From NCBI GenBank assembly GCA_964244895.1, contig CAXTKV010000057.1, positions 10,496-24,956 on the forward strand: a stretch of DNA of 14,461 bases. Direction: 5' to 3'. The notes under the pieces were generated by a model, which was given only the letters and a program-made list of their open reading frames with translations, was not told where the DNA came from and did not search any database. Of this stretch, positions 119 through 13,750 are shown piece by piece. The DNA is from an uncultured Deinococcales bacterium (GTDB lineage: Bacteria; Deinococcota; Deinococci; Deinococcales; JAAFIG01). The position numbers were made by a program, and so were the translations under genes. Position 1 is the stretch's first letter. Every line of letters starts with the position of its first letter.

Positions 119-181
119 GAAAAAGACCGTCCAGCACGCGAATTTCGAATGCTCGAGAAGACCGTGCTGGACGGTCTTCTC
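119..181. repeat. Paired palindromic element, copy 1 (35-bp spacing); possible dhaKL terminator
   Basis: Perfect 16-bp inverted repeat, AAGACCGTCCAGCACG (123-138) with CGTGCTGGACGGTCTT (163-178). The second unit is itself palindromic (155-181). On the minus strand the stem is followed by TTTTT. Confidence 0.9.
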
Positions 182-191
182 AAAACTCGGT

Positions 192-848
192 TCAAGAAAT
201 TGTCGATCCAGCGGGGCTGGCTGGAACCTGCAAAATGGCTTCCAGAATCGTCACGACCAGCACCGTGCCGGGGTCAATCTTGCCTTCGGTGCCGCCGACC
301 CAGTTGGCGCGCCCGATCATGGATTTGAGCGGGATGGCGGCGTCCCGCCCCCGACGGGCTGCATCCAGCATGGCCGCGCCCGCGTCTTCGAGGCTCGAGC
401 CCGACTGAATCGCGTCGCGGAAGGCTTCTGCGGCGGGATGGAGCGCGTCCACCAGGGTTTTGTCGCCGGGTTTGGCCTTGCCGCGCTCCTGAATGCCGGT
501 GTCTGCGGCCACCAGCATTCGCACCAGGGTTTCGGCATCCACGCTGGATGCGCCCACAGCTTCCTTGCCCGCGCGCATCAATGCGGTCGCGACCAGGGCT
601 CCCATCGTGCTGGGTGCGTGGCGGTTGTACGTCATGCCGACGCCCGCGAACCACTTGCCCAGGTCATCGCCCGGCGGGTTGGCGGCCATGTGATCCAGCA
701 CGCCCTGAGCACCTTTGGCGACGCTCAGTCCGGTGTCGCCATCGCCCATCGCGCCGTCGAGTTGGTTGAGCTGGTCGGTGATCTCGAGCAAGCGCCGCGC
801 GGCGCGCTCGATGGCGGATTGGAATTCGGCAGCCGCAATCGTGCTCAT
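192..848 (-). CDS. dhaL: Dihydroxyacetone kinase family, ADP-binding subunit L (DAK2 domain)
   Basis: LNQLDGAMGDGDTG, RGKAKPGDKTLVDAL, GRA and DPG motifs of DhaL/DAK2; its start overlaps the dhaK stop by 4 nt. Confidence 0.9.
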   Translation of the reverse strand: MSTIAAAEFQSAIERAARRLLEITDQLNQLDGAMGDGDTGLSVAKGAQGVLDHMAANPPGDDLGKWFAGVGMTYNRHAPSTMGALVATALMRAGKEAVGASSVDAETLVRMLVAADTGIQERGKAKPGDKTLVDALHPAAEAFRDAIQSGSSLEDAGAAMLDAARRGRDAAIPLKSMIGRANWVGGTEGKIDPGTVLVVTILEAILQVPASPAGSTIS

Positions 849-1840
849 ATCTTGAAGAACGGCGTGCTGGCCGGGTGATCGAGCAGGGTGCTCAGTTCAT
901 CGTCGAGCTTCATGACGGTGATGCTCGCGCCCGCCATCTCGAGGCTGGTGGCGTACTCACCGACGAAAGCCCGGTGAACGCCGACGCCCTGGGCTTCGAG
1001 CAGGGAATGGACGCGCCGATACAGGATGTACAGTTCCTCCGGCGGGGTCGCGCCGAGCCCGTTGACCATGACTGCGACCCGGTCGCCGCGCGTCAGGGGC
1101 ATGTCCGCCGCGATCGTCTCGAGGATCGTCAGCCCGATCTCGTCGGCGGTTTCCAGCGGGCCGTGGCGCACGCCGGGTTCGCCGTGGATGCCCATGCCGA
1201 GTTCCATCTCGCCGTCCGGCACGGTAAACGTCGGCTTGCCGACCGCGGGCAGGATGCACGGCCCCAGGGCCACGCCCATGGTGCGCATGTTGGCCAGCGC
1301 CTTGACGGTCGCGGCTTCGACTTCGTCCAGGCTGCCGCCCCGCTCCGCCTTCGCCCCCGCGATCTTGAAGGCGAACACCATGCCCGCCACGCCCCGGCGC
1401 GTCTGGGCGCGGTCTGCGGTGGCGCTCGCCACGTCGTCCTTGACCAGTACGGTGCGCACCGGGACGCCTTCCAGGTCGGCCATCTCGGTGGCCATGTCGA
1501 AGTTCATGACATCGCCTCCGTAGTTACCGTAGATGTACAGCACGCCCTGGCCGCCGTGAATGCGCTTGGTGACCTCGAGCATCTGATCGGCGCTCGGGGA
1601 CTGGAACACGTCACCGATGGCGCAACCGTCCAGCATGCCCTGCCCGACGTAGCCCAAAAAGACGGGCAGGTGGCCCGAGCCGCCGCCCGTGGCCAGCGCC
1701 ACCTTGCCCTGCATGGGCGCATCGGCGCGCACCAGACAGTGCAAGTCACCGACGTGCGCGACCATCTTCGGGTGCGCCATGTAGACGCCCTCGAGCATTT
1801 CAGAGACGAAATTCTTGGGGTCGTTCAAAATTTTTTTCAC
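845..1840 (-). CDS. dhaK: Dihydroxyacetone kinase family, substrate-binding subunit K (DAK1 domain)
   Basis: MKKILNDP N-terminus, GGGSGH, NYGGD.MNF, RRGVAG, GMGIHGEPG (substrate-binding His), VNGLGATP and TSLEMAG; GTG start preceded by GGAGGT. Confidence 0.93.
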   Translation of the reverse strand: MKKILNDPKNFVSEMLEGVYMAHPKMVAHVGDLHCLVRADAPMQGKVALATGGGSGHLPVFLGYVGQGMLDGCAIGDVFQSPSADQMLEVTKRIHGGQGVLYIYGNYGGDVMNFDMATEMADLEGVPVRTVLVKDDVASATADRAQTRRGVAGMVFAFKIAGAKAERGGSLDEVEAATVKALANMRTMGVALGPCILPAVGKPTFTVPDGEMELGMGIHGEPGVRHGPLETADEIGLTILETIAADMPLTRGDRVAVMVNGLGATPPEELYILYRRVHSLLEAQGVGVHRAFVGEYATSLEMAGASITVMKLDDELSTLLDHPASTPFFKI

Positions 1841-1976
1841 GCTAAACCTCCGACGAGTCTGGAACCTCGAGCGATGCTGGACTCCCTATTCCGACGCGGC
1901 AATCATACAGGCGCAGAACGCGGCTCGGGCCACCGATGATCGCGACCCGAGCGCAGCTTGACTGGATTCAAAAATC

Positions 1977-2037
1977 GAGAACAACGTCCAGCACGCACAT
2001 TTTTGGCATCGAGAATTCACGTGCCGCACGGTCTTTC
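1977..2037. repeat. Paired palindromic element, copy 2 (degenerate, 35-bp spacing)
   Basis: GAGAACAACGTCCAGCACGC ... CGTGCCGCACGGTCTT; centres at 1990 and 2025. Confidence 0.75.
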
Positions 2038-2190
2038 CACGCAACCTCGCCCAATTCATCCGGCGCCTAGCGGAATCTTCAGGTGCGCTGCGCCGAAACC
2101 ACCCCATGCGAAGGTCTGATCGGCGCGTGGGCAACACCCGTGAGCGGGTTCATGAAATCGACATCCTGACCGAAGCGTGAGCCGCACCAC

Positions 2191-2219
2191 TTGACCTGAA
2201 GCGCTCAAATTCGGAGAAT
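2191..2219 (+). promoter_or_regulatory. Candidate sigma70-type promoter for the ABC-mtnKA-aldolase operon
   Basis: TTGACC (2191-2196), 17-bp spacer, GAGAAT (2214-2219); the -10 is imperfect. Confidence 0.35.
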
Positions 2220-2296
2220 GGGCGCGTTCAACAATTCAGATAGACCGCGTCCGACATGGACATTTTGCGCCACCATGTTGGCGGAATGCACCGAAT

Positions 2297-2312
2297 TTGC
2301 AAACGATTGCAA
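2297..2312. promoter_or_regulatory. LacI/GalR-family operator-like palindrome
   Basis: TTGCAAACGATTGCAA is an AT-rich near-perfect palindrome matching TGnAAnCGnTTnCA, about 40 bp upstream of the first permease start. Confidence 0.7.
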
Positions 2313-2352
2313 GCGTGCGGCACGCGACCTAAACACCATTCGAGGAGTTCAC

Positions 2353-3363
2353 TTGCGGCAACTGCTGACGGACACCCACCTGCGCTTTCTGGTCGCCGCC
2401 AACCTCGCGATCCTGGTCGTGGCGTCTATCCTTTCAGGCGGAACCTTCCTCGATCCGTACAACTTTCAGAGCATGGCCACGCAATTGCCCGAAATCGGCC
2501 TGCTGGCCATCGCCATCGGCATCACGATGATCTCCGGCAACGGCGGCATCGACCTTTCCGTGGTCAGTATCGCCAACCTGTCCGCCATCGTCGCGGGATT
2601 GGTGATCCGCGCCACGCTCGGCACGGAAGGTCAGGGCGTGACCTTCACGCTGGTGTTCGTGGTGATCGCGCTGGTGGTCGGCACGCTCTGCGGGCTGATC
2701 AACGGCCTGCTCGTCTCGAGGGGCAACTTCCCGCCGATCCTCGCGACGCTCGGCACGCAGTTCGCATTCGTCGGGCTGGCGGTCGCGCTCTCGGGCGGGC
2801 CAGCGGTCGGATTGGGGTACGTCGAACCGTTCGTGGAAATTGGCAACGGCAACCTGCTGGGAATCCCGATCCCGTTTCTGATCTTCATCGCGGTCGTGCT
2901 GGTCTTTTCGTGGGCGCTGACCCGCACGCGCTTCGGCTTCCGGCTGTACCTGATGGGCACGAACGCCAAAGCTGCGCATTTCACCGGAATCGACAACAAA
3001 GCCGTGCTGCTGGTGACCTACACGCTTTCGGGCGTGGTGGCATCGATCGCTGGAACCGTGATCGCGTCGCGCGCCTCGAGCGTCAAATGGGATTACGGCA
3101 CGTCGTACCTGCTGATCGCGATCCTGATCGCCGTGATGGGCGGCGTCAACCCGTCCGGCGGGTACGGCAAGATCCTCGGACTGGTGCTCTCGAGCTTCGC
3201 CCTGCAGATGCTCTCGAGCACGCTGAACCTGCTGGGCACGTCAAATTTCTTGAAGGATTTCACCTGGGGGCTGCTGTTGCTCCTGTCGATCATGTTGACC
3301 AGCGCACGATTCAATCCCTTCCCGAAAACACCCACGCCACCCAAGGAGGTGAAGGCGAGCTAG
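2353..3363 (+). CDS. Sugar ABC transporter permease (CUT2, RbsC/LsrD-like)
   Basis: Hydrophobic protein with GGIDLSV, GLINGLLV, PILATLGT, TRFGFRLYLMGTN and GGVNPSGGYG. Start moved from the ORF-track 2218 to the in-frame TTG at 2353, which follows GAGGAG (2342-2347). Confidence 0.9.
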   Translation: MRQLLTDTHLRFLVAANLAILVVASILSGGTFLDPYNFQSMATQLPEIGLLAIAIGITMISGNGGIDLSVVSIANLSAIVAGLVIRATLGTEGQGVTFTLVFVVIALVVGTLCGLINGLLVSRGNFPPILATLGTQFAFVGLAVALSGGPAVGLGYVEPFVEIGNGNLLGIPIPFLIFIAVVLVFSWALTRTRFGFRLYLMGTNAKAAHFTGIDNKAVLLVTYTLSGVVASIAGTVIASRASSVKWDYGTSYLLIAILIAVMGGVNPSGGYGKILGLVLSSFALQMLSSTLNLLGTSNFLKDFTWGLLLLLSIMLTSARFNPFPKTPTPPKEVKAS

Positions 3364-3426
3364 AAGCAACACGCGGTTCTTGAGGTCTCGATAGCCAACG
3401 TTCCGAAGCCAATTCCAGGAGGTCGT

Positions 3427-4416
3427 ATGAAGAAAGCCATGATTCTCGGAGCTGGACTGCTGGTCGCCGCCGCCACGGGCGGAGTTCTGGCGCAGAAGAA
3501 ATACACGATCTACACGGTCGTCAAAATCACCGGCATCAACTGGTTCAACCGCATGGAAGAAGGCGTCAAGCAATACGCCAAGGACACCGGCAACAACGCC
3601 ACCCAGACCGGCCCCGCCCAGGCGGACGCCGCCCAGCAGTTGCAGGTCATCACCGACCTGGTGGCCAAGAAGCCAGACGCGCTGGCGGTCGTGCCATTCG
3701 ATCCGGCCACGCTGGAACCGATCTTCAAACAGGCGATCGATCGCGGCATTAAGGTCGTGACCCACGAAGCCGACAACCAGGTCAACACCCTCTACGACAT
3801 CGAAGCCTTCGACAACGTGGCCTTCGGCGCGAACCTGAACGCGCGCCTGGAAAAGTGCATGGGCGGCGCGGGCAAATGGACAGTCTTCGTCGGTAGCCTG
3901 GGATCGAAAACCCACAACCAGTGGGCGGACGGCGGCATCGAGAACGCCAAGAAGAACTCGAAGATGGTGCTGGTGGACGCCAAGCAAGAAACCAACGACG
4001 ACGCCGACAAAGCCTACGAGAAAGCCAAGGAAATCATCAAGAAGTACCCGGACATCAAGGGCTTCCAGGGCAGCGCCAGCACCGACGTGGCCGGCATCGG
4101 TCGCGCCGTGGAAGAGGCCGGGTTGAACGACAAGGTCTGCGTTTACGGCACCAGCCTGCCCTCGATCGCCGGTAAGTACATCGCCACCGGCGCGGTCGAC
4201 GGCATCGGTTTCTGGGACCCGAAGGACGCTGGCATCATCATGAACAAGGTCGCGCAGATGGTGCTCGAGGGCAAGACCGTCAAGGACGGCGCGGACCTGG
4301 GCATCAAGGGCTACAACAAGGTTTCCGTCACCAAGGGTAAGGGCGCTGGTTTCGTGATTCGCGGCAACGCCTTCGTGGACGTGGACAAGAGCAACTACAA
4401 GGAATTCCCGTTCTGA
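3427..4416 (+). CDS. Sugar ABC transporter substrate-binding protein (type 1 PBP, LsrB/AI-2-like subfamily)
   Basis: Sec signal peptide [58 protein letters not shown] and [17 protein letters not shown]. Confidence 0.9.
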
Positions 4417-4433
4417 TCTGAAGCAATAATGCA

Positions 4434-4486
4434 AACACCGTCCAGGACGCGATTCCTGAAGTGCGTCCCGGACGGTGTTCTCGAGA
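4434..4486. repeat. Paired palindromic element, copy 3 (25-bp spacing)
   Basis: AACACCGTCCAGGACGC (4434-4450) with GCGTCCCGGACGGTGTT (4463-4479), one mismatch, followed by CTCGAG. Confidence 0.9.
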
Positions 4487-4660
4487 AGCGGATCGAAGTG
4501 CAATGGTGCATTCCTCGGAACGCCGAAAGGTCAACTCGAGATTCGCCTTCAAAGCAACGTCAAGACGGTTCGAACGCGGAGCGGCGGACGCGCGCTCGAG
4601 CACCAGGTGAGTCCTGATGACTTGCACACCACACACAACGCGAAAACAAGAGAAAACCCA

Positions 4661-6208
4661 ATGACGACACCGACAAACGCGCACAACCTCAAACCCGGCG
4701 ACGAATTCCTGGCGCTCAACGACATCACCAAAACCTTCGGCGGCGTGCGCGCCCTGCGCGGCGTCAGCCTGAGCATCCGCGCGGGCGAGATCTACCACTT
4801 GCTGGGCGAGAACGGCTCAGGGAAATCGACGCTAATCAAGATCGTCTCCGGCGCGCAACCGCCCGACAGCGGCACGATGACGGTGCGCGGCAAGGAATAC
4901 AGGAAGCTCGAGGCGCTCGAATCGCTCGAGGCGGGCATCGAGACGGTCTACCAGGACTTGAGCCTGTTCCCGAACCTGAGCGTCGCGGAAAACGTGGCGC
5001 TGACCGCGCAGCTCGTGCAGAACGACGGGCGTCTGGGGCGAATGCTCAACTGGAAGAAACTCCAGGAGACCGCCAGCAGCGCCCTGGAACGCGTCGGGCT
5101 CGAGTCCACGACGGAATTTCTGGATCAAAAAGTCGAAAGCCTGCCGATCGCCGTGCGGCAACTCGTGGCCATCGCCCGTGGGCTGGCGACCAGCGCGTCA
5201 TTGGTGATCATGGACGAACCCACGGCGGCGCTGACGCAAAAAGAAGTCGAGAACCTGCTCTCGATCATCTCGAGCCTGCGCGCGGACGGGGTGAGCGTGC
5301 TGTTCGTCAGCCACAAACTCGACGAGGTTTTCCGCATCGGCGGCAACGTGATCGTGCTGCGCGACGGACTGAAAGTCGCGGATGGCAAGCTGAGCGATTA
5401 CAGCCAGGAGCAAATCAGCTTCCTGATGACCGGCAAGCACCTGGACAAAACCAGCTACCGCACCGGCAAGCCCGGCGCACAGGCGCTCCTCGAGATCAAA
5501 GGGCTCTCGCGCAGCGGGGCATTTTCAGGCGTGAGCTTCAACCTGCACCGGGGCGAGGTGCTGGGCATCACGGGCTTGCTGGATTCCGGGCGCAACGAAC
5601 TGGCGCTGGCGATTTCTGGCGTGCAACCCGCAGACGGCGGCCAGATCGTGCTGGACGGTCAAACCATCAGCGTCCAGAACCCGCGCGATGGCATCCGGCT
5701 CGGCATCGGCTACGTGCCCGAAGACCGACTGACCGAAGGTTTATTCCTGCAAAAACCGATCCGCGAGAACATCGTGGTCAGCATCCTGGATCGATTGATG
5801 CGCGGCAACCAGATCGACTTCCAAAAAAGCACCCTCGCCACCGAAACACTGGTCAAGGATTTGCAGATCGCCACGCCGAACGTGATGCTGCCCGCCCAGA
5901 GCCTGTCCGGTGGCAACCAGCAACGCGTGATGGTCGCGCGCTGGCTGGCGATCAACCCGAAAGTGCTGCTGCTGCACGGCCCGACCATGGGCGTGGATGT
6001 CGGCAGCAAGGACGCTCTCTACAGGATCGTGCAAGATTTAGCGCAGAAGGGATTGGGCGTGATCATCATTTCCGACGACCTGCCGGAATTGTTGATGAAC
6101 TGCGATTCGATTCACGTCATGAAAAAAGGCCGCATCGCCCGAACCTTTCAGGTCGAAGGGCTCGAGGAATCCGTGTTGTCTCACGAACTCCTGACCGAGG
6201 CCGCATGA
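4661..6208 (+). CDS. Sugar ABC transporter ATP-binding protein (two fused ABC domains, RbsA/MglA type)
   Basis: Walker A GENGSGKST, Q-loop VYQD, IMDEPT, VSH, YVPEDR and LSGGNQQ. Start taken as ATG 4661 because the ORF-track extension to 4475 begins inside a repeat. Confidence 0.93.
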   Translation: MTTPTNAHNLKPGDEFLALNDITKTFGGVRALRGVSLSIRAGEIYHLLGENGSGKSTLIKIVSGAQPPDSGTMTVRGKEYRKLEALESLEAGIETVYQDLSLFPNLSVAENVALTAQLVQNDGRLGRMLNWKKLQETASSALERVGLESTTEFLDQKVESLPIAVRQLVAIARGLATSASLVIMDEPTAALTQKEVENLLSIISSLRADGVSVLFVSHKLDEVFRIGGNVIVLRDGLKVADGKLSDYSQEQISFLMTGKHLDKTSYRTGKPGAQALLEIKGLSRSGAFSGVSFNLHRGEVLGITGLLDSGRNELALAISGVQPADGGQIVLDGQTISVQNPRDGIRLGIGYVPEDRLTEGLFLQKPIRENIVVSILDRLMRGNQIDFQKSTLATETLVKDLQIATPNVMLPAQSLSGGNQQRVMVARWLAINPKVLLLHGPTMGVDVGSKDALYRIVQDLAQKGLGVIIISDDLPELLMNCDSIHVMKKGRIARTFQVEGLEESVLSHELLTEAA

Positions 6209-6221
6209 GCGCCGCAGCACC

Positions 6222-6270
6222 CGAGAAGACCGTCCTGGACGCGAAATATAAAGTGTGTCCAGGACGGTGT
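6222..6270. repeat. Paired palindromic element, copy 4 (25-bp spacing)
   Basis: ACCGTCCTGGAC (6229-6240) with GTCCAGGACGGT (6257-6268), a perfect 12-bp inverted repeat. Confidence 0.9.
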
Positions 6271-6329
6271 CCCATGCAACTTCCAGAATCAATCCAGCAT
6301 CTTCAAATTGACTCGACTCGAGGTCAGAC

Positions 6330-7343
6330 GTGTCCGTGATCGCACCGACGCAACCCAGAACCCCGATCCGCGCCTGGCGGTCGTTTACCCGCCGACCCGA
6401 GTTCATCACGCTCGCCCTGATCGTGGTGTTTTCCCTGGCGGTCGGGATCATCAACCCGAATTTTTTCTCGCCGAAGACCGTGACGGACACGCTGCGCGCT
6501 TCCATTACCACGGGCATTTTCGCGTTGGGCGTGCTGCTGGTGCTGGCGGCGGGCGGTATCGACGTGTCGTTCACAGCCATCGCGATTTTCGCGCTCTATT
6601 CCACTACCCGGCTGATGCTGGCAGTCTGGCCGGGCGCGCCGTACCCGGTGATGATCCTGTTGTGCCTGGGCATCGGCTTGCTGATGGGCATGCTGAACGG
6701 CTTCCTGGTGTGGCGCTTCGCCGTGCCGTCCTTGATCGTGACCATCGGCACGCAGTATTTGTTCAGCGGCTTTCTGAAAGCCTTCATCGGCAGCAGGCAC
6801 ATCATGGACATCCCCGCCGCGATGGATTCGGCGGGCACGACCGCGCTCTTTCAGACCGTGACCGCCGACGGCACGCGCATCGCCGTACCGATACTGGTGC
6901 TGGTGCTGGTGCTGGCGATTATCGTGACGTGGTTCATCTTGAACCGCACGCTGCTGGGCCGCGCCGTCTACGCCGTCGGCGGCAGCATCCCGATCGCGGA
7001 ACGGTTGGGGTTCAGCGTGCGCACCGTGATGCTGTTCGTGTTCGGTTACGCGGGCATGTTGGCCGGATTGGGCGGACTGATGCACGGGTCGTTGAACCGT
7101 CAGGCCAACCCGTCCGATCTGGTTGGCTCTGAACTGAACGTGATCGCGGCGGTCGTGCTGGGCGGTGCGCGCATCACGGGCGGCACGGGCACGGTGCTGG
7201 GCACGCTGTTGGGCGTGGTGCTGATCGAGTTGCTGACCAACAACCTGATCCTGATGGGCGTGCCTTCCACCTGGCAAAAAGTGGTGATCGGCGTGATTAT
7301 TCTGGCGGCCAGCGGCGTGTTCTCGAGGCGCGGTACAGCGTGA
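6330..7343 (+). CDS. Sugar ABC transporter permease (CUT2)
   Basis: GGIDVSF, GMLNGFLV, PSLIVTIGT, TLLGRAVYAVGG and ELNVIAAVVLGGARITGGTGTVLGT; GAGG upstream of the GTG start. Confidence 0.92.
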   Translation: MSVIAPTQPRTPIRAWRSFTRRPEFITLALIVVFSLAVGIINPNFFSPKTVTDTLRASITTGIFALGVLLVLAAGGIDVSFTAIAIFALYSTTRLMLAVWPGAPYPVMILLCLGIGLLMGMLNGFLVWRFAVPSLIVTIGTQYLFSGFLKAFIGSRHIMDIPAAMDSAGTTALFQTVTADGTRIAVPILVLVLVLAIIVTWFILNRTLLGRAVYAVGGSIPIAERLGFSVRTVMLFVFGYAGMLAGLGGLMHGSLNRQANPSDLVGSELNVIAAVVLGGARITGGTGTVLGTLLGVVLIELLTNNLILMGVPSTWQKVVIGVIILAASGVFSRRGTA

Positions 7344-7346
7344 TGT

Positions 7347-7462
7347 ACCGATCTGGACGGGTTTCTCGGGCATTCGCAAAAAGATCGTCCCAGACGGCTT
7401 TCCTTGCATTGAACGCCCTCGCTCGAGCACGCGCATCACTCAATCTGGACGGTGCTCTCGAG
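7347..7462. repeat. Palindromic element cluster, copy 5 (three degenerate units)
   Basis: ACCGATCTGGACGGGTTTCTCG, AAGATCGTCCCAGACGGCTTT and CTGGACGGTGCTCTCGAG; centres at 7354, 7391 and 7446. Confidence 0.7.
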
Positions 7463-7476
7463 GGAAGTGAACGGGC

Positions 7477-8727
7477 TTGAGTTACCGAATTCTCGACGCT
7501 GAGACCGTTCTCGAGTACATGCAGTCGCACCCGAAAGCACGGGATGTGATCGACGTTGACGCCCCCCTTCAGAGCGCGGAACTTTCGGATGGCAACCTCA
7601 ATTTCGTGTTTCGGGTTTTTGAAAAAGACCGTCCAGAACGCAGCATCCTGGTCAAGCAGGGCGTTCCTTACTTGCGCGTGGCGGGTGAATCCTGGCCGCT
7701 CTCCCCTGCCCGTGCGGGCTTCGAAGCCCGCGCGCTCGAGCTTCAGCACCGTTTCGCGCCGGGGCTGGTGCCGACACCGTACTGGTTCGACGAGACCATG
7801 TGCGTCAACGCAATGGAAGATTTGCGCCACCACAACGTCATGCGCAAACCGATGGTGGATCGTGTGCGGTTCGAGCATCTCGGCGCGACGATTGGAGACT
7901 TTCTCTCGAGAACGCTGTTCGGCACGTCGGATTTTGGGCTCGAGGCGAAGGAGAAAAAAATGCTTCAGACCCGATTTGCCAACGCGGAACTCTGCGAGAT
8001 CACCGAGGATTTGATTTTCACCGAACCGTTCGAGCCCGCGCTGCTGGGAGGCAAATCCAACCGCAACCGCTTCGATCCTGGAATCAAAAACACGCTCGAG
8101 ATGCTCCAAGCTGATCTCGAGGTCAGGGCGCAAGTCTCGAGCCTCAAGCACCGCTTCATGACGGTGGCGCAGGCGCTCTTGCACGGCGACCTGCACACGG
8201 GTTCGATCATGGCTTCCGACCCGGACGAGAAAGGTGCATCGGATATTCGGGTGATCGACCCGGAGTTCGCGTTCTTCGGCCCGGCCGGATTCGACGTGGG
8301 GTTGTTCGTGGCGAATCTTTTTTTGAACGCCAGCGCTCAAGCCGGTCACGCGCCTGATGAAGACTCGAGAACCGCGTACCGGACGTATTTGTTTGGTCAG
8401 GCCAGGGCCTGCTGGACGGTCTTCGAGGGCGGTTTCCGCGAGCGTCTCCACTCGTCCAACAGCGTTTCGTGGCGATCCCGAGCGTTCCGTGACGCGTTCA
8501 TGCTCGAGGTGCTGCAGGACGCGGCGGGCTTCGCGGGCTGCGAGATGATCCGCCGAAGCGTCGGTTTCGCGCACGTTCTCGACGTGGACAGCATCGCGGA
8601 TGACGCGAAACGCGCCGAAGTGCTCGAGATGAATCTACGCGTAGGTTCAGAACTGATTCGGTCGCACCGAACCATCTCGAGTTTCAATGAAATCGAGGGT
8701 ATCGTAAAAAGCGTGATTCGCGCATGA
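7477..8727 (+). CDS. mtnK: S-methyl-5-thioribose / 5-deoxyribose kinase
   Basis: DGNLNFVF, VKQ..PYLR..GESWPL, LCEITEDLIFTEPF, LLHGDLHTGSIM, IDPEFAFFGP.GFDVG and GFAGCEMIRR motifs. Confidence 0.95.
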   Translation: MSYRILDAETVLEYMQSHPKARDVIDVDAPLQSAELSDGNLNFVFRVFEKDRPERSILVKQGVPYLRVAGESWPLSPARAGFEARALELQHRFAPGLVPTPYWFDETMCVNAMEDLRHHNVMRKPMVDRVRFEHLGATIGDFLSRTLFGTSDFGLEAKEKKMLQTRFANAELCEITEDLIFTEPFEPALLGGKSNRNRFDPGIKNTLEMLQADLEVRAQVSSLKHRFMTVAQALLHGDLHTGSIMASDPDEKGASDIRVIDPEFAFFGPAGFDVGLFVANLFLNASAQAGHAPDEDSRTAYRTYLFGQARACWTVFEGGFRERLHSSNSVSWRSRAFRDAFMLEVLQDAAGFAGCEMIRRSVGFAHVLDVDSIADDAKRAEVLEMNLRVGSELIRSHRTISSFNEIEGIVKSVIRA

Positions 8728-9785
8728 TTCAGCCCGTCCCGACCGTGGTTTTCGAGAACGACACCGTGAGCTTGCTCGATCAGACCTTGCTGCCGCTCGA
8801 GCGCAAAATGATCGAGATTCCGGACGCCGAAAGTATGTGGGAAGCCATTCAGGTTTTGCGGGTGCGCGGCGCTCCGGCCATCGGCGTGGCGGCGGGGTTC
8901 GGGCTGTGGCTGGGCGTCAAGGGCGTGCCGGATGACGCACCTCGAGAAACCTTCCTGGCGAGGCTCGAGGAGGTTCGGGCGTACCTGGCGACCTCGCGCC
9001 CGACCGCCGTGAACCTGTTCTGGGCGCTGGATCGGGTGGTCGCCGGGACTCGAGCATCGGTTGGAACGGTCGCAGGAGAACTCAAGAAGACCGTCCTGCA
9101 CGAAGCGCTGGCCATTAAAGCCAGTGAGGAAGCCACGTCGCTCGCCATCGGAAAGTACGGCGTGCCGCTCCTGAACGGTGTTCAGAACGTGCTAACGCAC
9201 TGCAACGCGGGTTCGCTTGCCACGACGGGCATCGGTACGGCGCTCGCCCCGATTTACGCGGCGGCGGCGCAGGGGCAGATCGTGCACGTCTACGCCGACG
9301 AGACGCGCCCGTTGCTGCAAGGCTCCCGACTGACCGCCTGGGAATTGCAGCAGGCCGGGCTGCCCGTGACGGTCATCACCGACAACATGGCGGCGACCGT
9401 CATGCGCGACAAGAACATCGGCGCGGTCATCGTCGGATGCGACCGCGTGGCGGCCAACGGGGACTTTGCCAACAAGATCGGCACCTACGGCGTGGCCATA
9501 CTGGCTCGAGAACACGGCATTCCTTTTTACGTGGCCGCACCGTTCAGCACGATCGATTTCGGCACGCCGGACGGGTCGCGGATCGAGATCGAGCAGCGCA
9601 GCGCGTCGGAAGTCACGAGTTTCGGCTCGAGGCGCACCGCGCCGGATGGCGTGGACGCGTTCAACCCGGCGTTCGACGTGACCCCCGCGAAGTACGTCAC
9701 GGCCTTCATCACCGACAGGGGCGTCATTGAGGCCCCGTACACGGAAAATCTGGCGCGGGCTCGAGAGGCGTTCGAGGTCGGCTGA
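8724..9785 (+). CDS. mtnA: S-methyl-5-thioribose-1-phosphate (5-deoxyribose-1-phosphate) isomerase
   Basis: LLDQTLLP, VRGAPAIG, RPTAVNL, THCNAGSLAT, DETRPLLQGSRLTAWEL, ANKIGTY and NPAFDVTP; ATGA overlap with the mtnK stop. Confidence 0.96.
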   Translation: MIQPVPTVVFENDTVSLLDQTLLPLERKMIEIPDAESMWEAIQVLRVRGAPAIGVAAGFGLWLGVKGVPDDAPRETFLARLEEVRAYLATSRPTAVNLFWALDRVVAGTRASVGTVAGELKKTVLHEALAIKASEEATSLAIGKYGVPLLNGVQNVLTHCNAGSLATTGIGTALAPIYAAAAQGQIVHVYADETRPLLQGSRLTAWELQQAGLPVTVITDNMAATVMRDKNIGAVIVGCDRVAANGDFANKIGTYGVAILAREHGIPFYVAAPFSTIDFGTPDGSRIEIEQRSASEVTSFGSRRTAPDGVDAFNPAFDVTPAKYVTAFITDRGVIEAPYTENLARAREAFEVG

Positions 9786-9797
9786 ACTCGAGCAGAA

Positions 9798-9851
9798 CGA
9801 GAACACCGTCCAGCACGCGAATACAAAACACCGTCCTGGACGGTGTTCTCG
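9798..9851. repeat. Paired palindromic element, copy 6 (25-bp spacing)
   Basis: 20-bp arms CGAGAACACCGTCCAGCACG and CGTCCTGGACGGTGTTCTCG with one mismatch; the second unit is the perfect palindrome AACACCGTCC-T-GGACGGTGTT (9827-9847). Confidence 0.92.
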
Positions 9852-9864
9852 GAAAGGTGAGCGA

Positions 9865-11850
9865 ATGGAAAGCCTCTGGGACGACGCACAAGCAGCCAAA
9901 TGCACGACGGAACTCGAGCTGCGGGCGTACACGTCCAGGTTGCTGGGCGCTCGAGAAGACCTGGTGCTGGCGGGCGGTGGCAACACGTCGGTCAAGCTGA
10001 GCATGACGGACGTGTTCGGACAGGATCTCGCGGGCATGTGGGTCAAGGGCAGCGGCGGCGCGCTGGTCAGCATCACCCAAAAAGGTTTCGCACCCGTCAG
10101 GTTGGATCATCTGCTGGCGCTCTCGAACCTCGAGAAGCTGTCCGACGCGGACATGATGCGCGAGTACAGCTTGAGCCTGCTCGACCCGGACGCGCCCTTC
10201 CCGAGCGTCGAGGCGATCCTGCACGCGCTCCTGCCGCACACGTGGGTGGATCACACGCACGCCGACGCCCTAGAAACCATCATGGACACGCCCTCCGGCG
10301 AGGCTCGCGTGCGCGAACTGTACGGCGAGACCGTCGTGTACGTGCCCTACGTCATGCCGGGATTCGATCTGGCGCTGGCCTGCAAAAAGGCCTACGCGGA
10401 GCAGGCGTCGCATAAAACCATCGGCATGGTGCTGCTGCACCACGGCATTTTCTCGTGGGGCGAGACCGCGCGGGAATCCTACGAACGCATGATCGATCTG
10501 GTCACGCGAGCTGAGCAGTACCTCGAGGTGCGTGGCGCGTGGCATCTCGAAATCCAGAAGCCCGAGGCGGCGAAACCGCTCGGTGCCGACATCGCGCGGC
10601 TCCGGCACGAGATATCCAGCGTCGCGGGCGCACCGATGATCGTGCAACGGTTGGAGGACGATCTGAGCATCGCCTTCTCGAGACGAGCCGATATTTCAGA
10701 CGTGGCGACGCGCGGCCCCGCAACCGTGGATCACGTCTCCTGGACGAAACACCAGCCGTTGATCGGGCGAGACGTTCGGGCCTACGCCGACGCCTACCGC
10801 GCGTATTTCGAGCGCCACGCATCCACGGCCCGCACCGGTTCGACCCTGGCCGAATTGAGCATGATCGACCCTGCGCCGAGGGTCGTGATCGACGCGCGGC
10901 TGGGCGTGCTGACGGCGGGACGCACCGTGCCCGACGCGCGCACGACGGGCAAGATTTACGCGCAGACCATCCAGATGATCGAGCGCGCCGAACGACTGGA
11001 ATCGTGGAACACGCTGCCCGAAGGACAATTCTTCGAGATCGAATACTGGGAATTGCAGCAGGCCAAATTCAAGAAAGGCCCGAAGCTCCCGGACTTTTCC
11101 GGCGAGGTGATGCTGGTCACGGGCGCGGCCTCCGGCATCGGCAGGGCGTGCGCGGAAGCGTTTCTGGCTCGAGGCGCCGCCGTCGTCGGGCTCGACCTGA
11201 ACGCCAGCATCACGACCACGTTTGAGCGACCCGAGTACCTGGGCATCCAGTGCGACGTGACCGACGAGAACGCGATTCAGTCCGCGCTCGAGCGAACCGC
11301 GCAACGCTACGGCGGGCTGGACATGCTGGTGCTGAACGCCGGAATTTTCCCCTCGAGCGAGATGATTTCTTCGCTCGACCTCGAGCGTTGGCAGCGCGTC
11401 ATGCGCGTCAACCTGGACGCCAACCTGAGCCTGATGCGAGAAGCGCACGGGTTGCTGAAGCTCGCGCCGAACGGCGGGCGAGTCGTGGTGATCGCGTCTA
11501 AGAACGTGCCCGCACCGGGGCCTGGAGCGGCGGCCTACAGCGCATCCAAGGCCGCACTGACCCAACTGGCTCGGGTTGCCGCACTGGAATGGGGCGCGGA
11601 CGGGATTCGCGTCAACGTGCTGCACCCGAACGCCGTGTTCGACACGGGCATCTGGACGGAAGACGTGATTTCAAAACGCGCCGAGAGCTACAAGCTGAGC
11701 GTCGAGGAATACAAGAAGAACAACGTGCTGCACACGGAAGTCTCGAGCGCGAACGTCGCGGAATTGGCAGCGGTGATGTGCGGGATGGCGTTTGCGAAGA
11801 CGACGGGGGCGCAACTCCCGATTGACGGCGGGAACGACAGGGTCATTTAG
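9865..11850 (+). CDS. Bifunctional class II aldolase / short-chain dehydrogenase (RhaD-SDR, RhaEW-like fusion)
   Basis: N-terminal GGGNTSVK, WVKGSG, PSVEAILH, VDHTHAD and HHGIFSWG; linker EYWELQQAK; C-terminal SDR motifs TGAASGIG, NAG and YSASK. Start taken as ATG 9865 after GAAAGGTGA because the ORF-track extension crosses the mtnA end and a repeat. Confidence 0.9.
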   Translation: MESLWDDAQAAKCTTELELRAYTSRLLGAREDLVLAGGGNTSVKLSMTDVFGQDLAGMWVKGSGGALVSITQKGFAPVRLDHLLALSNLEKLSDADMMREYSLSLLDPDAPFPSVEAILHALLPHTWVDHTHADALETIMDTPSGEARVRELYGETVVYVPYVMPGFDLALACKKAYAEQASHKTIGMVLLHHGIFSWGETARESYERMIDLVTRAEQYLEVRGAWHLEIQKPEAAKPLGADIARLRHEISSVAGAPMIVQRLEDDLSIAFSRRADISDVATRGPATVDHVSWTKHQPLIGRDVRAYADAYRAYFERHASTARTGSTLAELSMIDPAPRVVIDARLGVLTAGRTVPDARTTGKIYAQTIQMIERAERLESWNTLPEGQFFEIEYWELQQAKFKKGPKLPDFSGEVMLVTGAASGIGRACAEAFLARGAAVVGLDLNASITTTFERPEYLGIQCDVTDENAIQSALERTAQRYGGLDMLVLNAGIFPSSEMISSLDLERWQRVMRVNLDANLSLMREAHGLLKLAPNGGRVVVIASKNVPAPGPGAAAYSASKAALTQLARVAALEWGADGIRVNVLHPNAVFDTGIWTEDVISKRAESYKLSVEEYKKNNVLHTEVSSANVAELAAVMCGMAFAKTTGAQLPIDGGNDRVI

Positions 11851-11851
11851 T

Positions 11852-11900
11852 ACCGTCCAGCACACGTTCTCAAATCCGTGTCCTGGACGGTGCTCTCGAG
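11852..11900. repeat. Paired palindromic element, copy 7 (25-bp spacing)
   Basis: ACCGTCCAGCACACG (11852-11866) with CGTGTCCTGGACGGT (11877-11891), followed by GCTCTCGAG. Confidence 0.9.
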
Positions 11901-11940
11901 CTTGACCCGTCGGATCAAATCGTCTGGATCGCAGGCCGCG

Positions 11941-11946
11941 TAGAAT
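11941..11946 (+). promoter_or_regulatory. Leaderless -10 promoter element for kynU
   Basis: TAGAAT lies exactly 6 nt before ATG 11953, with no Shine-Dalgarno sequence. Confidence 0.65.
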
Positions 11947-11952
11947 CACGCC

Positions 11953-13188
11953 ATGATCTCGAAAGAAGATATTCTGGCGCTCGACCAGTCCGATCCGCTC
12001 GCAGGTGTCCGCGATGAATTCAGCGTGCCGGACGGACTGGTGTACCTGGACGGGAACTCGTTGGGCGTGCTGCCCAAGCGCGTTCCTTCACGCCTCGAGC
12101 GAGCGATCAGGCAGGAATGGGGCACCGACCTGATCCGGTCGTGGAACAAAAACGATTGGATCGGTTTGCCCGCGCGGGTCGGCGCACAGATTGCGCGGCT
12201 AATCGGTGCAAACGCAGATGAGGTGATCGCGGCGGATTCGACCAGCGTGAACCTGTTCAAAATCCTGCTGGCCGCGCTGAAATTGCGCCCCGACCGGCGC
12301 GTGATCGTCAGCGACATCGATAATTTCCCAACCGATCTGTACATGGCGCAGGGCGTGAACGCGCTCTTGGATGATCGGCTCGAGTTGCGGTTCGTCAAAC
12401 GAGATCAGCTGATGACTGCGATGGACTCGAGTGTGGCGGTCGTGATGCTGACGCAAGTCGATTACCGCACGGGCGAGTTGCTGGACATGAAGGGCATCAC
12501 GGACGCGGCGCACGCGAACGGCGCGTTGATGATCTGGGATCTGGCGCACAGCGCGGGCGCGTTCCCGGTGCACCTGAACGCGTGCGACGTGGATTTCGCG
12601 GTTGGGTGCGGTTACAAGTACCTGAACGGCGGCCCCGGCGCTCCTGCGTTCTTGTTCGTTGCGCATGAACACCAAACCCAGGCCGTGCCGGTGCTGTCGG
12701 GCTGGATGGGGCACAAGAACCCGTTCGAGTTCACGCCGTGGTACGCGCCCGCAGAGGGTGTCGGGCGGTTAACGGCGGGCACGCCGAGCGTGCTGGGACT
12801 GACCGCGCTCGAGGCGGCGCTCGAGGTCTTCGATGGGATCGACATGAACCTGGTGCGCCAGAAATCGCTCGGGTTGACGGGCGCGTTCATCGCGTTGATG
12901 GAACCGTTGCGCCAGGAATTTGGGTTCGAGTTGGTGACGCCAAAGGATGGCGCGCTGCGCGGTTCGCAGGTCAGTTACGCGCACGATCAGGGCTACGCGA
13001 TCATGCAGGCATTGATCGCGGACGGTGTGATCGGTGATTTTCGTGCGCCGAACATCGTGCGCTTCGGGTTCACACCGTTGTACACGCGTTACGCGGATGT
13101 TCAGGAGGCTGTGGATCGGTTAGCGCGGGTGATGCGAGAAAAACGTTGGAATCTCGAGCAGTACAGGGAACGCGCCGCCGTGACCTGA
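11953..13188 (+). CDS. kynU: Kynureninase (PLP-dependent)
   Basis: YLDGNSLG, DSTSVNLFK, NFPTDLY, WDLAHSAGA, GCGYKYLNGGPGAP (PLP lysine), RGSQVS and GVIGDFR. Confidence 0.95.
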   Translation: MISKEDILALDQSDPLAGVRDEFSVPDGLVYLDGNSLGVLPKRVPSRLERAIRQEWGTDLIRSWNKNDWIGLPARVGAQIARLIGANADEVIAADSTSVNLFKILLAALKLRPDRRVIVSDIDNFPTDLYMAQGVNALLDDRLELRFVKRDQLMTAMDSSVAVVMLTQVDYRTGELLDMKGITDAAHANGALMIWDLAHSAGAFPVHLNACDVDFAVGCGYKYLNGGPGAPAFLFVAHEHQTQAVPVLSGWMGHKNPFEFTPWYAPAEGVGRLTAGTPSVLGLTALEAALEVFDGIDMNLVRQKSLGLTGAFIALMEPLRQEFGFELVTPKDGALRGSQVSYAHDQGYAIMQALIADGVIGDFRAPNIVRFGFTPLYTRYADVQEAVDRLARVMREKRWNLEQYRERAAVT

Positions 13189-13230
13189 ATGAAAGTAGGC
13201 GTCTCGAGGATTGGCTTTGTCGAGATTCGC

Positions 13231-13650
13231 TTATTGATCCAGCACCTTCGACCAGATCGCTGGGCTGGCCGGGTTGGCGCTGGCGGTGATTTTCAGGATC
13301 GTGTGGGCGTCGGGGTACTCGAGCAGACGCGTGAATTCGTGAGGTGCCATGACGCATTCCTTGAAGTTGATCGCGCCTTTGGCGGAAAGTCCTTCCAGCA
13401 AATCCTCGAGCGCTCGCTTGCCGCTCGCGCCGTAGCGCGGGCCGAAGGCGTCCTCGGAGAGCGCGATGCGTTCGCCGCTTTTGATCAGCACGGCGTAACG
13501 GGCGGTATCGCGGCGATCCTGCCAGTCGGAAAGGATCGTGACGATGGCGTGTTTCAGGTCGAAGCCCTTGACGGCGGATTGCAGCGCCGACAGGGTTTCG
13601 AGCGGTGAGCCTTGCAGGCCGATGGGGTCGAGGTTTGGGGCTTCGGTCAT
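13231..13650 (-). CDS. Conserved hypothetical protein, probably DUF3197-like (Deinococcus-Thermus)
   Basis: Clean 139-aa ORF with its own leaderless -10. DPIGLQGSPLETL, SDWQD.R..ARYA and AFGPRYG..G..AL resemble DUF3197 proteins as recalled; not verified by search. Confidence 0.7.
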   Translation of the reverse strand: MTEAPNLDPIGLQGSPLETLSALQSAVKGFDLKHAIVTILSDWQDRRDTARYAVLIKSGERIALSEDAFGPRYGASGKRALEDLLEGLSAKGAINFKECVMAPHEFTRLLEYPDAHTILKITASANPASPAIWSKVLDQ

Positions 13651-13656
13651 GGCTCG

Positions 13657-13662
13657 AGCCTA
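13657..13662 (-). promoter_or_regulatory. Leaderless -10 promoter element for the 13231..13650 gene
   Basis: The minus strand reads TAGGCT-CGAGCC-ATG, a TANNNT hexamer 6 nt before the start codon. Confidence 0.55.
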
Positions 13663-13697
13663 CGGCGTCCGGCGCAGCTGTGGCAAGAGCGTGACGG

Positions 13698-13750
13698 GAA
13701 GACCGTCCAGCACGCGAATTCTTTGATCTCGAGAGCACCGTCTGGGACGC
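13698..13750. repeat. Paired palindromic element, copy 8 (35-bp spacing)
   Basis: AAGACCGTCCAGCACGCGAATT (13699-13720) is identical over 22 bp to 123-144; the second unit is CTCGAGAGCACCGTCTGGGACGC. Confidence 0.88.

What the first reader, a model, noticed from the sequence alone, without database searches (positions are those of the whole stretch)
126..13744. Paired units are spaced 25 or 35 bp apart, a difference of one helical turn
Seen, centre to centre: 4444/4469, 6236/6261, 9812/9837 and 11859/11884 are all 25 bp. 133/168, 1990/2025 and 13709/13744 are all 35 bp. 7391/7446 is 55 bp, and 7354/7391 (37 bp) is the one exception. Spacer sequences differ substantially between loci while length is fixed. 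Inference: an RNA hairpin would not need loop lengths quantised in 10-bp steps. This points to two protein dimers binding dsDNA in a fixed rotational phase (nucleoid-organising, recombinase/relaxase or repressor-like). Two ancestral element subtypes that spread separately would be an alternative explanation.
Basis: partly seen in the sequence, partly recalled or inferred. Interest (0 to 1): 0.8.

Follow-up and report, generated by a model that had tools for sequence, protein, structure and literature searches.

The report
Helix-phased palindrome pairs at gene ends
This bacterium carries about 1,750 pairs of a short palindromic DNA motif, almost all between genes and spaced either 25-26 or 35-36 bases apart while the DNA between them drifts freely, a layout that likely marks paired docking sites for an as yet unidentified DNA-binding protein rather than ordinary RNA hairpins.

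Summary
The spacing is real and genome-wide. Of 2,006 neighbouring motif pairs within 120 bp, 984 lie at 24-26 bp and 802 at 34-37 bp, with almost nothing between; minor peaks sit at 30-31 and 41. The predicted 45 and 55 peaks are absent (0 and 2). Spacers are only about 40% alike, yet shifts of two or more bases are rare (about 2% against 11-39% expected). RNA-hairpin selection fails three tests: no arm covariation in the 35 class, no G-U bias, no polarity. The 25 class shows weak covariation. The family is absent from 363 other genomes of the phylum. It was inserted (gaps about 85 bp longer than in a sister genus) and kept at both orthologous loci found in congeners. In PheT and MiaA it overlies coding sequence with no indel. 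The resident RAYT-like gene has its own, different GTAG repeat. No cognate protein was found. Best reading: a REP/REPIN-like element read as two phased double-strand binding sites. An earlier scan note on another piece of this genome called the family ordinary REPs; the phasing evidence is new.

The parts
122..179 (.). 35-bp doublet (centres 133/168), downstream of dhaL
   Evidence: 27.7/24.9 bits; near-identical copy (2 differences across the core) at G000 C288 in unrelated flanks
1979..2036 (.). 35-bp doublet (centres 1990/2025), divergent dhaK/ABC intergenic region
   Evidence: 20.2/18.1 bits; a related organism in run X1 aligns across it with other letters at two of its non-consensus positions
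4433..4480 (.). 25-bp doublet (4444/4469), after the sugar-binding protein stop codon
   Evidence: 29.8/26.5 bits
6225..6272 (.). 25-bp doublet (6236/6261), after the ABC ATPase stop codon
   Evidence: 26.7/20.7 bits; gap 81 bp longer than the orthologous gap in G003
7343..7457 (.). Lone unit at 7391 with two half-site remnants (7354, 7446); not a true 37- or 55-bp pair
   Evidence: 15.6, 1.7 and 3.2 bits
7624..7646 (+). Single unit inside mtnK (centre 7635)
   Evidence: 25.1 bits; no indel against 6 of 8 homologues, the other 2 are three residues shorter here
8402..8424 (-). Single weaker unit inside mtnK (centre 8413)
   Evidence: 17.4 bits; no indel against 8 of 8 homologues; may be chance
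9086..9108 (+). Single unit inside mtnA (centre 9097), collinear with homologues
   Evidence: 23.8 bits; no indel against 9 of 9 homologues
9801..9848 (.). 25-bp doublet (9812/9837) between mtnA and the aldolase/SDR gene, which abut in the sister genus
   Evidence: 30.4/28.2 bits; aligned gap 103 bp here against 1 bp in G003
11848..11895 (.). 25-bp doublet (11859/11884), starting at the aldolase/SDR stop codon
   Evidence: 15.9/22.8 bits
13698..13755 (.). 35-bp doublet (13709/13744) after the phosphosulfolactate phosphatase gene; folds no better than its shuffles
   Evidence: 28.4/19.6 bits; folding z = -0.03

Best explanation
These pairs are a genus-restricted interspersed DNA element, inserted about 1,750 times mostly just behind stop codons, whose two 21-bp palindromic units are likely read as double-stranded binding sites by two dimers of one unidentified protein that would fit side by side only at 25-26 or 35-36 bp, one helical turn apart. 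Shown: the unit (AAC-ACCGT-5 variable bases-ACG, with TT mirrored at +9/+10), the two spacings, spacer drift at fixed length, insertion relative to a sister genus, usually one pair per gap, and retention at both orthologous loci found in congeners. Inferred: the protein is probably the element's mobiliser or a domesticated descendant. Its paired binding, with phased A/T runs easing a bend, would keep both the cores and the spacing under selection. The same preference, or short-patch conversion from the 4,000-plus donor units, would complete partial matches in place, even inside PheT and MiaA. The likely host role is chromosome organisation or insulation at gene ends; this last step is the least supported.
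For: Two sharp peaks 10 bp apart with empty bins between them, unchanged at a low partner threshold; outer-side partners peak at 30-31 and 41-42. Shifts of two or more bases: 16 of 1,000 and 19 of 808 observed, against 11-25% and 19-39% expected from measured non-coding indel/substitution ratios. Conserved columns show almost no dependence on each other, within a unit or between arms. In class 35 the centre pair is complementary 0.31 against 0.29 expected, and real elements fold no better than chimeras of unrelated arms (-23.9 against -24.4 kcal/mol, p=0.90). G-U against A-C mismatches on the transcribed strand: 423/438 and 365/403; no downstream U-tract; no arm polarity. Orthologous loci L020 (80% identical) and L021 (adjacent gene 77% identical) keep the pair and its class (25/25 and 36/35), with 39 of 40 key positions identical but spacers at 4/13 and 7/23. 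In PheT and MiaA the pair overlies host codons with no indel against 7 of 7 homologues each. In-gene pairs at the class spacings number 26, against 0-3 in four synonymous redraws. The resident RAYT-like gene has its own unrelated GTAG repeat.
Against: No cognate protein was found, and the assembly is 91% complete. There are no 45 or 55 peaks. The 25 class shows weak arm covariation (centre 0.53 against 0.40; +2 position 0.57 against 0.44; folding p=0.04) and forms strong hairpins. Position behind stop codons and preference for convergent gaps (347/499, against 230/603 for divergent gaps) are what RNA-acting REPs also show. The classes differ in inner sequence, so the 10-bp offset could be a coincidence of two founders. 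Orthologous retention rests on two loci, both found by a search that selected intact pairs. The indel expectation assumes a star phylogeny.
Confidence: 0.5

Rival explanations
1. Ordinary untagged REPIN/REP-dimer family: two founder subtypes, by chance 10 bp apart, spread as single-stranded hairpins by a RAYT-type enzyme that is lost or unassembled, and now act as mRNA hairpins at 3' ends.
For: Inverted doublets, extragenic and near stop codons. Inserted without target duplication. Five of the seven window pairs fold at z = -5.4 to -7.7. Near-identical copies exceed simulation (32 of 822 within 2 mismatches, against 1-6; seven identical-core pairs). Pseudomonas REPINs also have discrete spacing classes and unique spacers (PMC3337134).
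Against: REPINs are described with common compensatory changes (PMC3116915); class 35 has none. There is no G-U bias or polarity and no unpaired GTAG or CGTC tag before a stem. A hairpin would not need a fixed loop length. The resident RAYT-like gene carries a different repeat. In-place pairs in PheT and MiaA are not insertions.
Confidence: 0.3
2. DNA-uptake or self-recognition signal (DUS/USS-like) driven up by biased uptake, with inverted pairs accumulating at gene ends.
For: Density of about one unit per 1.1-1.2 kb, like neisserial DUS (PMC2397512). Scarce on several contigs, three of which carry IS remnants. Units completed in place inside genes above the synonymous null (72 against 6-11 at 20 bits or more). 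A ComEA-like HhH gene is flanked by lone units.
Against: 1,658 of 1,750 pairs of the two main classes are intergenic and only 31 are in genes. Pair-bearing gaps are insertions. One DUS is enough for uptake and DUS pairs are terminators, whereas these pairs lack U-tracts and have fixed spacing.
Confidence: 0.1
3. Neutral relics of an old MITE-like burst, with no present function; core sharpness comes from detection bias and ectopic conversion among copies.
For: No transposase with matching ends was found; no dominant master copy exists (commonest spacer region occurs 3 times); outer flanks carry no copy-descent signal.
Against: Unit scores in pairs peak at 22-30 bits, far above the 12-bit cut-off. 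Length shifts are depleted. Cores are kept while spacers are saturated at orthologous loci. Two pairs per gap occur about ten times less often than Poisson predicts (29 against 342 in tandem gaps).
Confidence: 0.1

Closest known systems
REPINs of Pseudomonas fluorescens SBW25 with RAYT (PMC3337134, first third of the text read; PMC3116915, passages read)
   Same: Inverted doublets of a short palindrome, extragenic, in discrete spacing classes, with hardly two spacers alike and singlets partly remnants.
   Different: No compensatory hairpin changes in the 35 class; the spacer does not pair; about 1,750 pairs against about 560; main classes exactly one turn apart; no linked RAYT; pairs completed in place inside genes.
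GTAG and CGTC REP dimers (PMC3733652, passages read) and E. coli BIME-1/BIME-2 (PMC3333891, passages read)
   Same: Located downstream of ORFs and in convergent gaps; some in frame in genes; BIMEs bind IHF, Pol I and gyrase; CGTC repeats also lack a dedicated transposase.
   Different: No unpaired terminal tag; the unit's own stem is only 3-5 conserved pairs; almost no tandem arrays (27 of 3,021 clusters have more than two units); linker length is fixed but its sequence is free.
Tn3-family res sites (PMC12217951, passages read)
   Same: Dyad binding sites for dimers whose centre distances vary by whole helical turns; this is what the element works like geometrically.
   Different: Two subsites, not three; thousands of copies; no resolvase found in the genome.
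Neisserial DUS / Pasteurellaceae USS (PMC2397512, passages read)
   Same: Density, lineage specificity, inverted pairs at gene ends, in-place origin of some copies.
   Different: Palindromic unit, overwhelmingly intergenic and inserted, no terminator U-tracts, quantised spacing.

Membership tests
REPIN / REP-RAYT | Over-represented extragenic palindrome, mostly in inverted doublets with preferred spacings | tested here: met
REPIN / REP-RAYT | Hairpin kept by compensatory changes between arms | tested here: not met
   Class 35: none; class 25: weak only; no G-U bias
REPIN / REP-RAYT | RAYT gene flanked by the same repeat | tested here: not met
   The only RAYT-like gene (50.2 bits, below the 80-bit cut-off) carries a different GTAG hairpin, and no unit of 12 bits or more lies in its flanking gaps. 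The genome is 91% complete, so another RAYT could be missing.
GTAG/CGTC REPs | Unpaired GTAG or CGTC tag at the foot of an 8-9-bp or similar stem | tested here: not met
   Consensus: CGTC lies inside the palindrome, not before a stem
MITE (DDE type) | Target-site duplication | tested here: not met
   No offset with more than 36 of 970 matches at k=3, or any coherent signal at k=2-8
MITE (DDE type) | Autonomous transposase with matching ends | tested here: inconclusive
   IS630 and IS4/IS5-type hits are not enclosed by units; IS110 and IS1595 not found; other families not searched
Intrinsic terminator | Polar hairpin followed by a U-tract | tested here: not met
   T count downstream equals its mirror (3.42/3.44 and 3.40/3.47); no polarity
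Integron attC sites | Integron integrase and oriented cassettes | tested here: not met
   No hit over the TIGR02249 cut-off; elements follow housekeeping genes without orientation
Tn3-type res sites | Resolvase gene beside three subsites | tested here: not met
   PF00239 not found; two units per element
DUS/USS | Sequence-biased DNA uptake | not testable with these tools
   Needs a cultured strain
DUS/USS | Origin mainly in place, including coding DNA | tested here: not met
   31 of 1,750 pairs are in genes; pair-bearing gaps are insertions; a minority of in-place cases exists
Phased protein-binding site pairs | Specific double-strand binding that depends on spacing | not testable with these tools
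   Only indirect sequence evidence

The most novel reading that the evidence does not exclude
One genus has acquired a new chromosome-wide code: about 1,750 helically phased pairs of operator-like sites, about one per gene end, for an unknown dimer-of-dimers protein (a domesticated mobiliser turned nucleoid organiser). The pull of this protein is strong enough to rewrite codons of essential genes such as pheT and miaA into correctly spaced site pairs.
Probability: 0.3. Interest if true: 0.8.

Novelty: new variant of a known kind. Interest (0 to 1): 0.58.

Why it matters
Whether REP-like repeats are parasites, RNA hairpins or protein docking sites is a long-standing open question. This genome offers an unusually clean case. 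It holds a conventional RAYT-linked GTAG family beside a family more than 40 times larger that lacks RNA-hairpin signatures and keeps a one-turn geometry. The 25, 35, +5 and +10 probes make the protein hypothesis directly testable. A hit would reveal a new sequence-specific chromosome-binding protein or mobiliser in Deinococcota.

Tried and rejected
Rfam: no match in the window. Cognate-protein hunt, all negative: Y1_Tnp; the RAYT-like gene, which has a different repeat; 11 tyrosine-recombinase hits, none enclosed by a distinctive unit array; resolvase, reverse transcriptase, IS110 and IS1595 not found; DUF559 and GIY-YIG single hits, the latter in a 613-aa frame; 14 of the 76 genes lying between lone units were scanned and none was a nuclease or transposase; no small multi-copy family is consistently flanked. 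A TSD reading in which the central 5 bases are duplicated was rejected, because direct-register identity is at or below expectation. An attC reading was rejected. A split into target site and element at position 8/9 was considered: outer flanks are no more alike in close pairs than in random pairs, but no empty-target word is enriched, so this is left open. My covariation control on the GTAG repeat was mis-registered and is uninformative; its compensatory variants are visible only by eye. The GTAG-family gap ratio (0.055) was kept as the lowest indel control. Viral contigs: 0 matches. No RNA holder was listed. Run X1 output was truncated, so spacers could not be compared. Literature searches for the motif letters and for phased extragenic repeats found nothing relevant; supplements were not read.
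Full report
Observation. The 37- and 55-bp cases rest on half-sites scoring 1.7 and 3.2 bits and should be dropped. The genome (5.12 Mb, 328 contigs, 62.7% GC, 91% complete) is placed in Deinococcota by earlier scan notes; I did not test that label directly. A weight matrix grown from the seed finds 4,923 units at 12 bits or more (about 342 expected) and 4,217 at 16 bits or more (about 96 expected). Of 2,006 adjacent pairs within 120 bp, 984 are at 24-26 and 802 at 34-37; 51 are at 30-31, 27 at 41, none at 44-45 and two at 55. A 5-bit partner threshold around 2,728 strong anchors gives the same picture, with outer-side partners peaking at 30-31, 35-36 and 41-42.

Anatomy. The unit is a palindrome of about 21 bp: AA at -10/-9, ACCGT at -7 to -3, five variable central bases, ACG at +3 to +5, and TT near +9/+10. 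Pairs are inverted. Inner flanks come in two types that differ between classes: a full-palindrome inner side is present in 92 of 822 pairs at 25 bp but 314 of 537 at 35 bp. Spacers carry T-runs then A-runs at fixed offsets but are only 0.42 and 0.40 alike on average, and 821 of 822 and 537 of 537 elements are distinct. Using my own gene calls (4,502 genes; all 12 window genes were recovered, some with shifted starts), 1,846 of 3,021 clusters are pairs and only 27 are larger. Of 1,750 pairs in the two main classes, 1,658 are intergenic, 31 in genes and 61 at contig edges; they crowd behind stop codons (median 24-27 bp) and avoid starts. They fill 1,042 of 1,978 tandem, 347 of 499 convergent and 230 of 603 divergent gaps of 70 bp or more. 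Two in one gap is rare: 29 against 342 under Poisson for tandem gaps (a null that ignores gap length).

Is it an RNA or single-strand hairpin? Most pairs can fold (five of seven window pairs at z below -5; two no better than shuffles), as any inverted repeat must. But in the 35 class the arms do not covary and fold no better than chimeras of unrelated arms (p=0.90, 300 against 300). The 25 class shows only a weak excess (p=0.04; centre pair 0.53 against 0.40), which shared descent or repair of near-palindromes could also give (recalled mechanism). On the transcribed strand, G-U mismatches do not outnumber A-C (423/438 in 565 elements; 365/403 in 436), there is no U-tract, and neither arm type prefers the upstream side. 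Length, by contrast, is held. Non-coding indel/substitution ratios measured here are 0.10 in sister genera and 0.14 in own paralogues, and 0.055 in the GTAG repeat. They predict 11-25% and 19-39% of elements shifted by two or more bases; 16 of 1,000 and 19 of 808 are. Counting every off-peak pair up to 45 bp raises this only to about 7% (my arithmetic). The estimate assumes a star phylogeny.

Origin. A loose doublet pattern has 883 matches here and 0-2 in each of 363 other genomes of the phylum, including all 18 of the family. Against 1.94 Mb of the 4.5-Mb sister-genus genome G003, 260 syntenic gaps were compared. Gaps with a 25- or 35-class pair are a median 81 bp (n=29) and 88 bp (n=30) longer, empty gaps 7 bp (n=155; p=4.5e-11). 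Where the G003 gap is 60 bp or less, 26 of 26 are at least 58 bp longer. In the window, mtnA and the next gene abut in six genomes of that genus but are split by the 9812/9837 pair here. So the family spread by insertion, without target duplication. Near-identical copies in unrelated flanks exceed simulation, but no master copy dominates. The copies are old. Two metagenome contigs from congeners (80% identical overall; 77% in the adjacent gene) carry the pair at the orthologous place and in the same class, with 39 of 40 key bases but only 4/13 and 7/23 spacer bases shared. Both were found by a search for intact pairs. Run X1 holds a closer relative with the same family.

In-gene copies. Units in coding DNA exceed a synonymous redraw (72 against 6-11 at 20 bits or more), and pairs at the class spacings number 26 against 0-3. 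Six pair-bearing proteins were aligned with family homologues. MetH has the pair in a length-variable linker, a molybdopterin enzyme has it in a C-terminal extension, and two proteins are 2 and about 3-8 residues longer. PheT (36 bp) and MiaA (34 bp) show no indel against 7 of 7 homologues each, and the spacer still encodes host-like residues; in PheT the homologues already carry partial matches at both places. Of 44 in-gene units of 16 bits or more with a G003 alignment, 20 have no gap within ten residues and 10 sit in insertions of five residues or more; some low scorers are chance. Partial matches are thus completed in place, by selection or by short-patch conversion; my data do not separate these.

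Protein. None was found. The genome has one RAYT-like gene, below the family cut-off, but its repeat is a GTAG hairpin with 62 copies and no relation to this unit. Resolvase, reverse transcriptase, IS110, IS1595 and integron integrase were not found. Other transposases, tyrosine recombinases, DUF559 and GIY-YIG genes are not enclosed by units in any distinctive way. Following a lead from earlier notes on nuclease-cassette repeats, 14 of 76 genes between lone units were scanned with no nuclease hit. The assembly is incomplete and most proteins were not annotated.

Mechanism and comparison. Fixed bases with free centre and spacer, independent columns, phased A/T runs and a length allowed to change only by about a turn are what two dimers bound side by side on duplex DNA would leave. 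Tn3 res subsites vary by whole turns in this way (PMC12217951, passages). In layout and spread the element works like REPINs, which also have spacing classes and unique spacers (PMC3337134, first third read; PMC3116915, passages), and like REP dimers and BIMEs (PMC3733652; PMC3333891; passages). It fails their tests of compensatory pairing, terminal tag and linked RAYT, so I do not file it as a member. It resembles DUS in density and in-place completion (PMC2397512, passages) but not in location. I give 0.5 to phased duplex binding, 0.3 to an ordinary REPIN with two founders, and 0.1 each to an uptake signal and to neutral relics. Searches for the motif and for phased extragenic repeats found no description (open-access library only, supplements unseen). 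Verdict: a real feature and a new variant of the REP-like kind, interest 0.58.

Noticed in passing
G000 C12:40622-41188 (L030:1405-1971): RAYT-like gene (NF047646, 50.2 bits, below cut-off) inside an operon, with one GTAG hairpin at its start and one inside it; 62 copies within 5 mismatches genome-wide, many as doublets: a conventional REPIN family living beside the one studied.
   Followed up: partly
whole genome and family relatives: CTCGAG is extremely frequent (4.3 per kb here; 4.0-7.2 per kb in stretches of eight relatives) and abuts the element at a fixed offset (298 of 1,940 outer flanks of the 25 class), but it is family-wide while the element is not.
   Followed up: partly
G000 C64:8373-8639: A GTAG REPIN sits between two lone, inward-facing units, as if inserted into a doublet.
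   Followed up: no
G000 C5, C15, C36, C50, C130, C173, C190, C221: Contigs nearly free of the element (0-5 units); C5 and C130 carry IS remnants and share paralogous blocks, probably recently acquired DNA.
   Followed up: partly
G000 C7:42992/43022, C17:20136/20166 and others: 8 of the 40 in-gene pairs are at 30 bp, some as in-frame direct repeats of ten codons, against under 2% genome-wide.
   Followed up: partly
G000 C225:5440-5742 (L212) and C206:645-962: A ComEA-like helix-hairpin-helix gene flanked by lone units, and a four-member family of similar small proteins (the second label is my reading of the sequence, from no call).
   Followed up: no
G000 C29:31918-32080: A 25-class doublet whose right arm is interrupted by three tandem copies of a 36-bp unit.
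   Followed up: no
window 192-13188: Dihydroxyacetone kinase genes, a sugar ABC transporter, mtnK, mtnA, a bifunctional aldolase/dehydrogenase and kynureninase; the mtnK-mtnA-aldolase order is shared with genus g4: an ordinary salvage cluster.
   Followed up: partly
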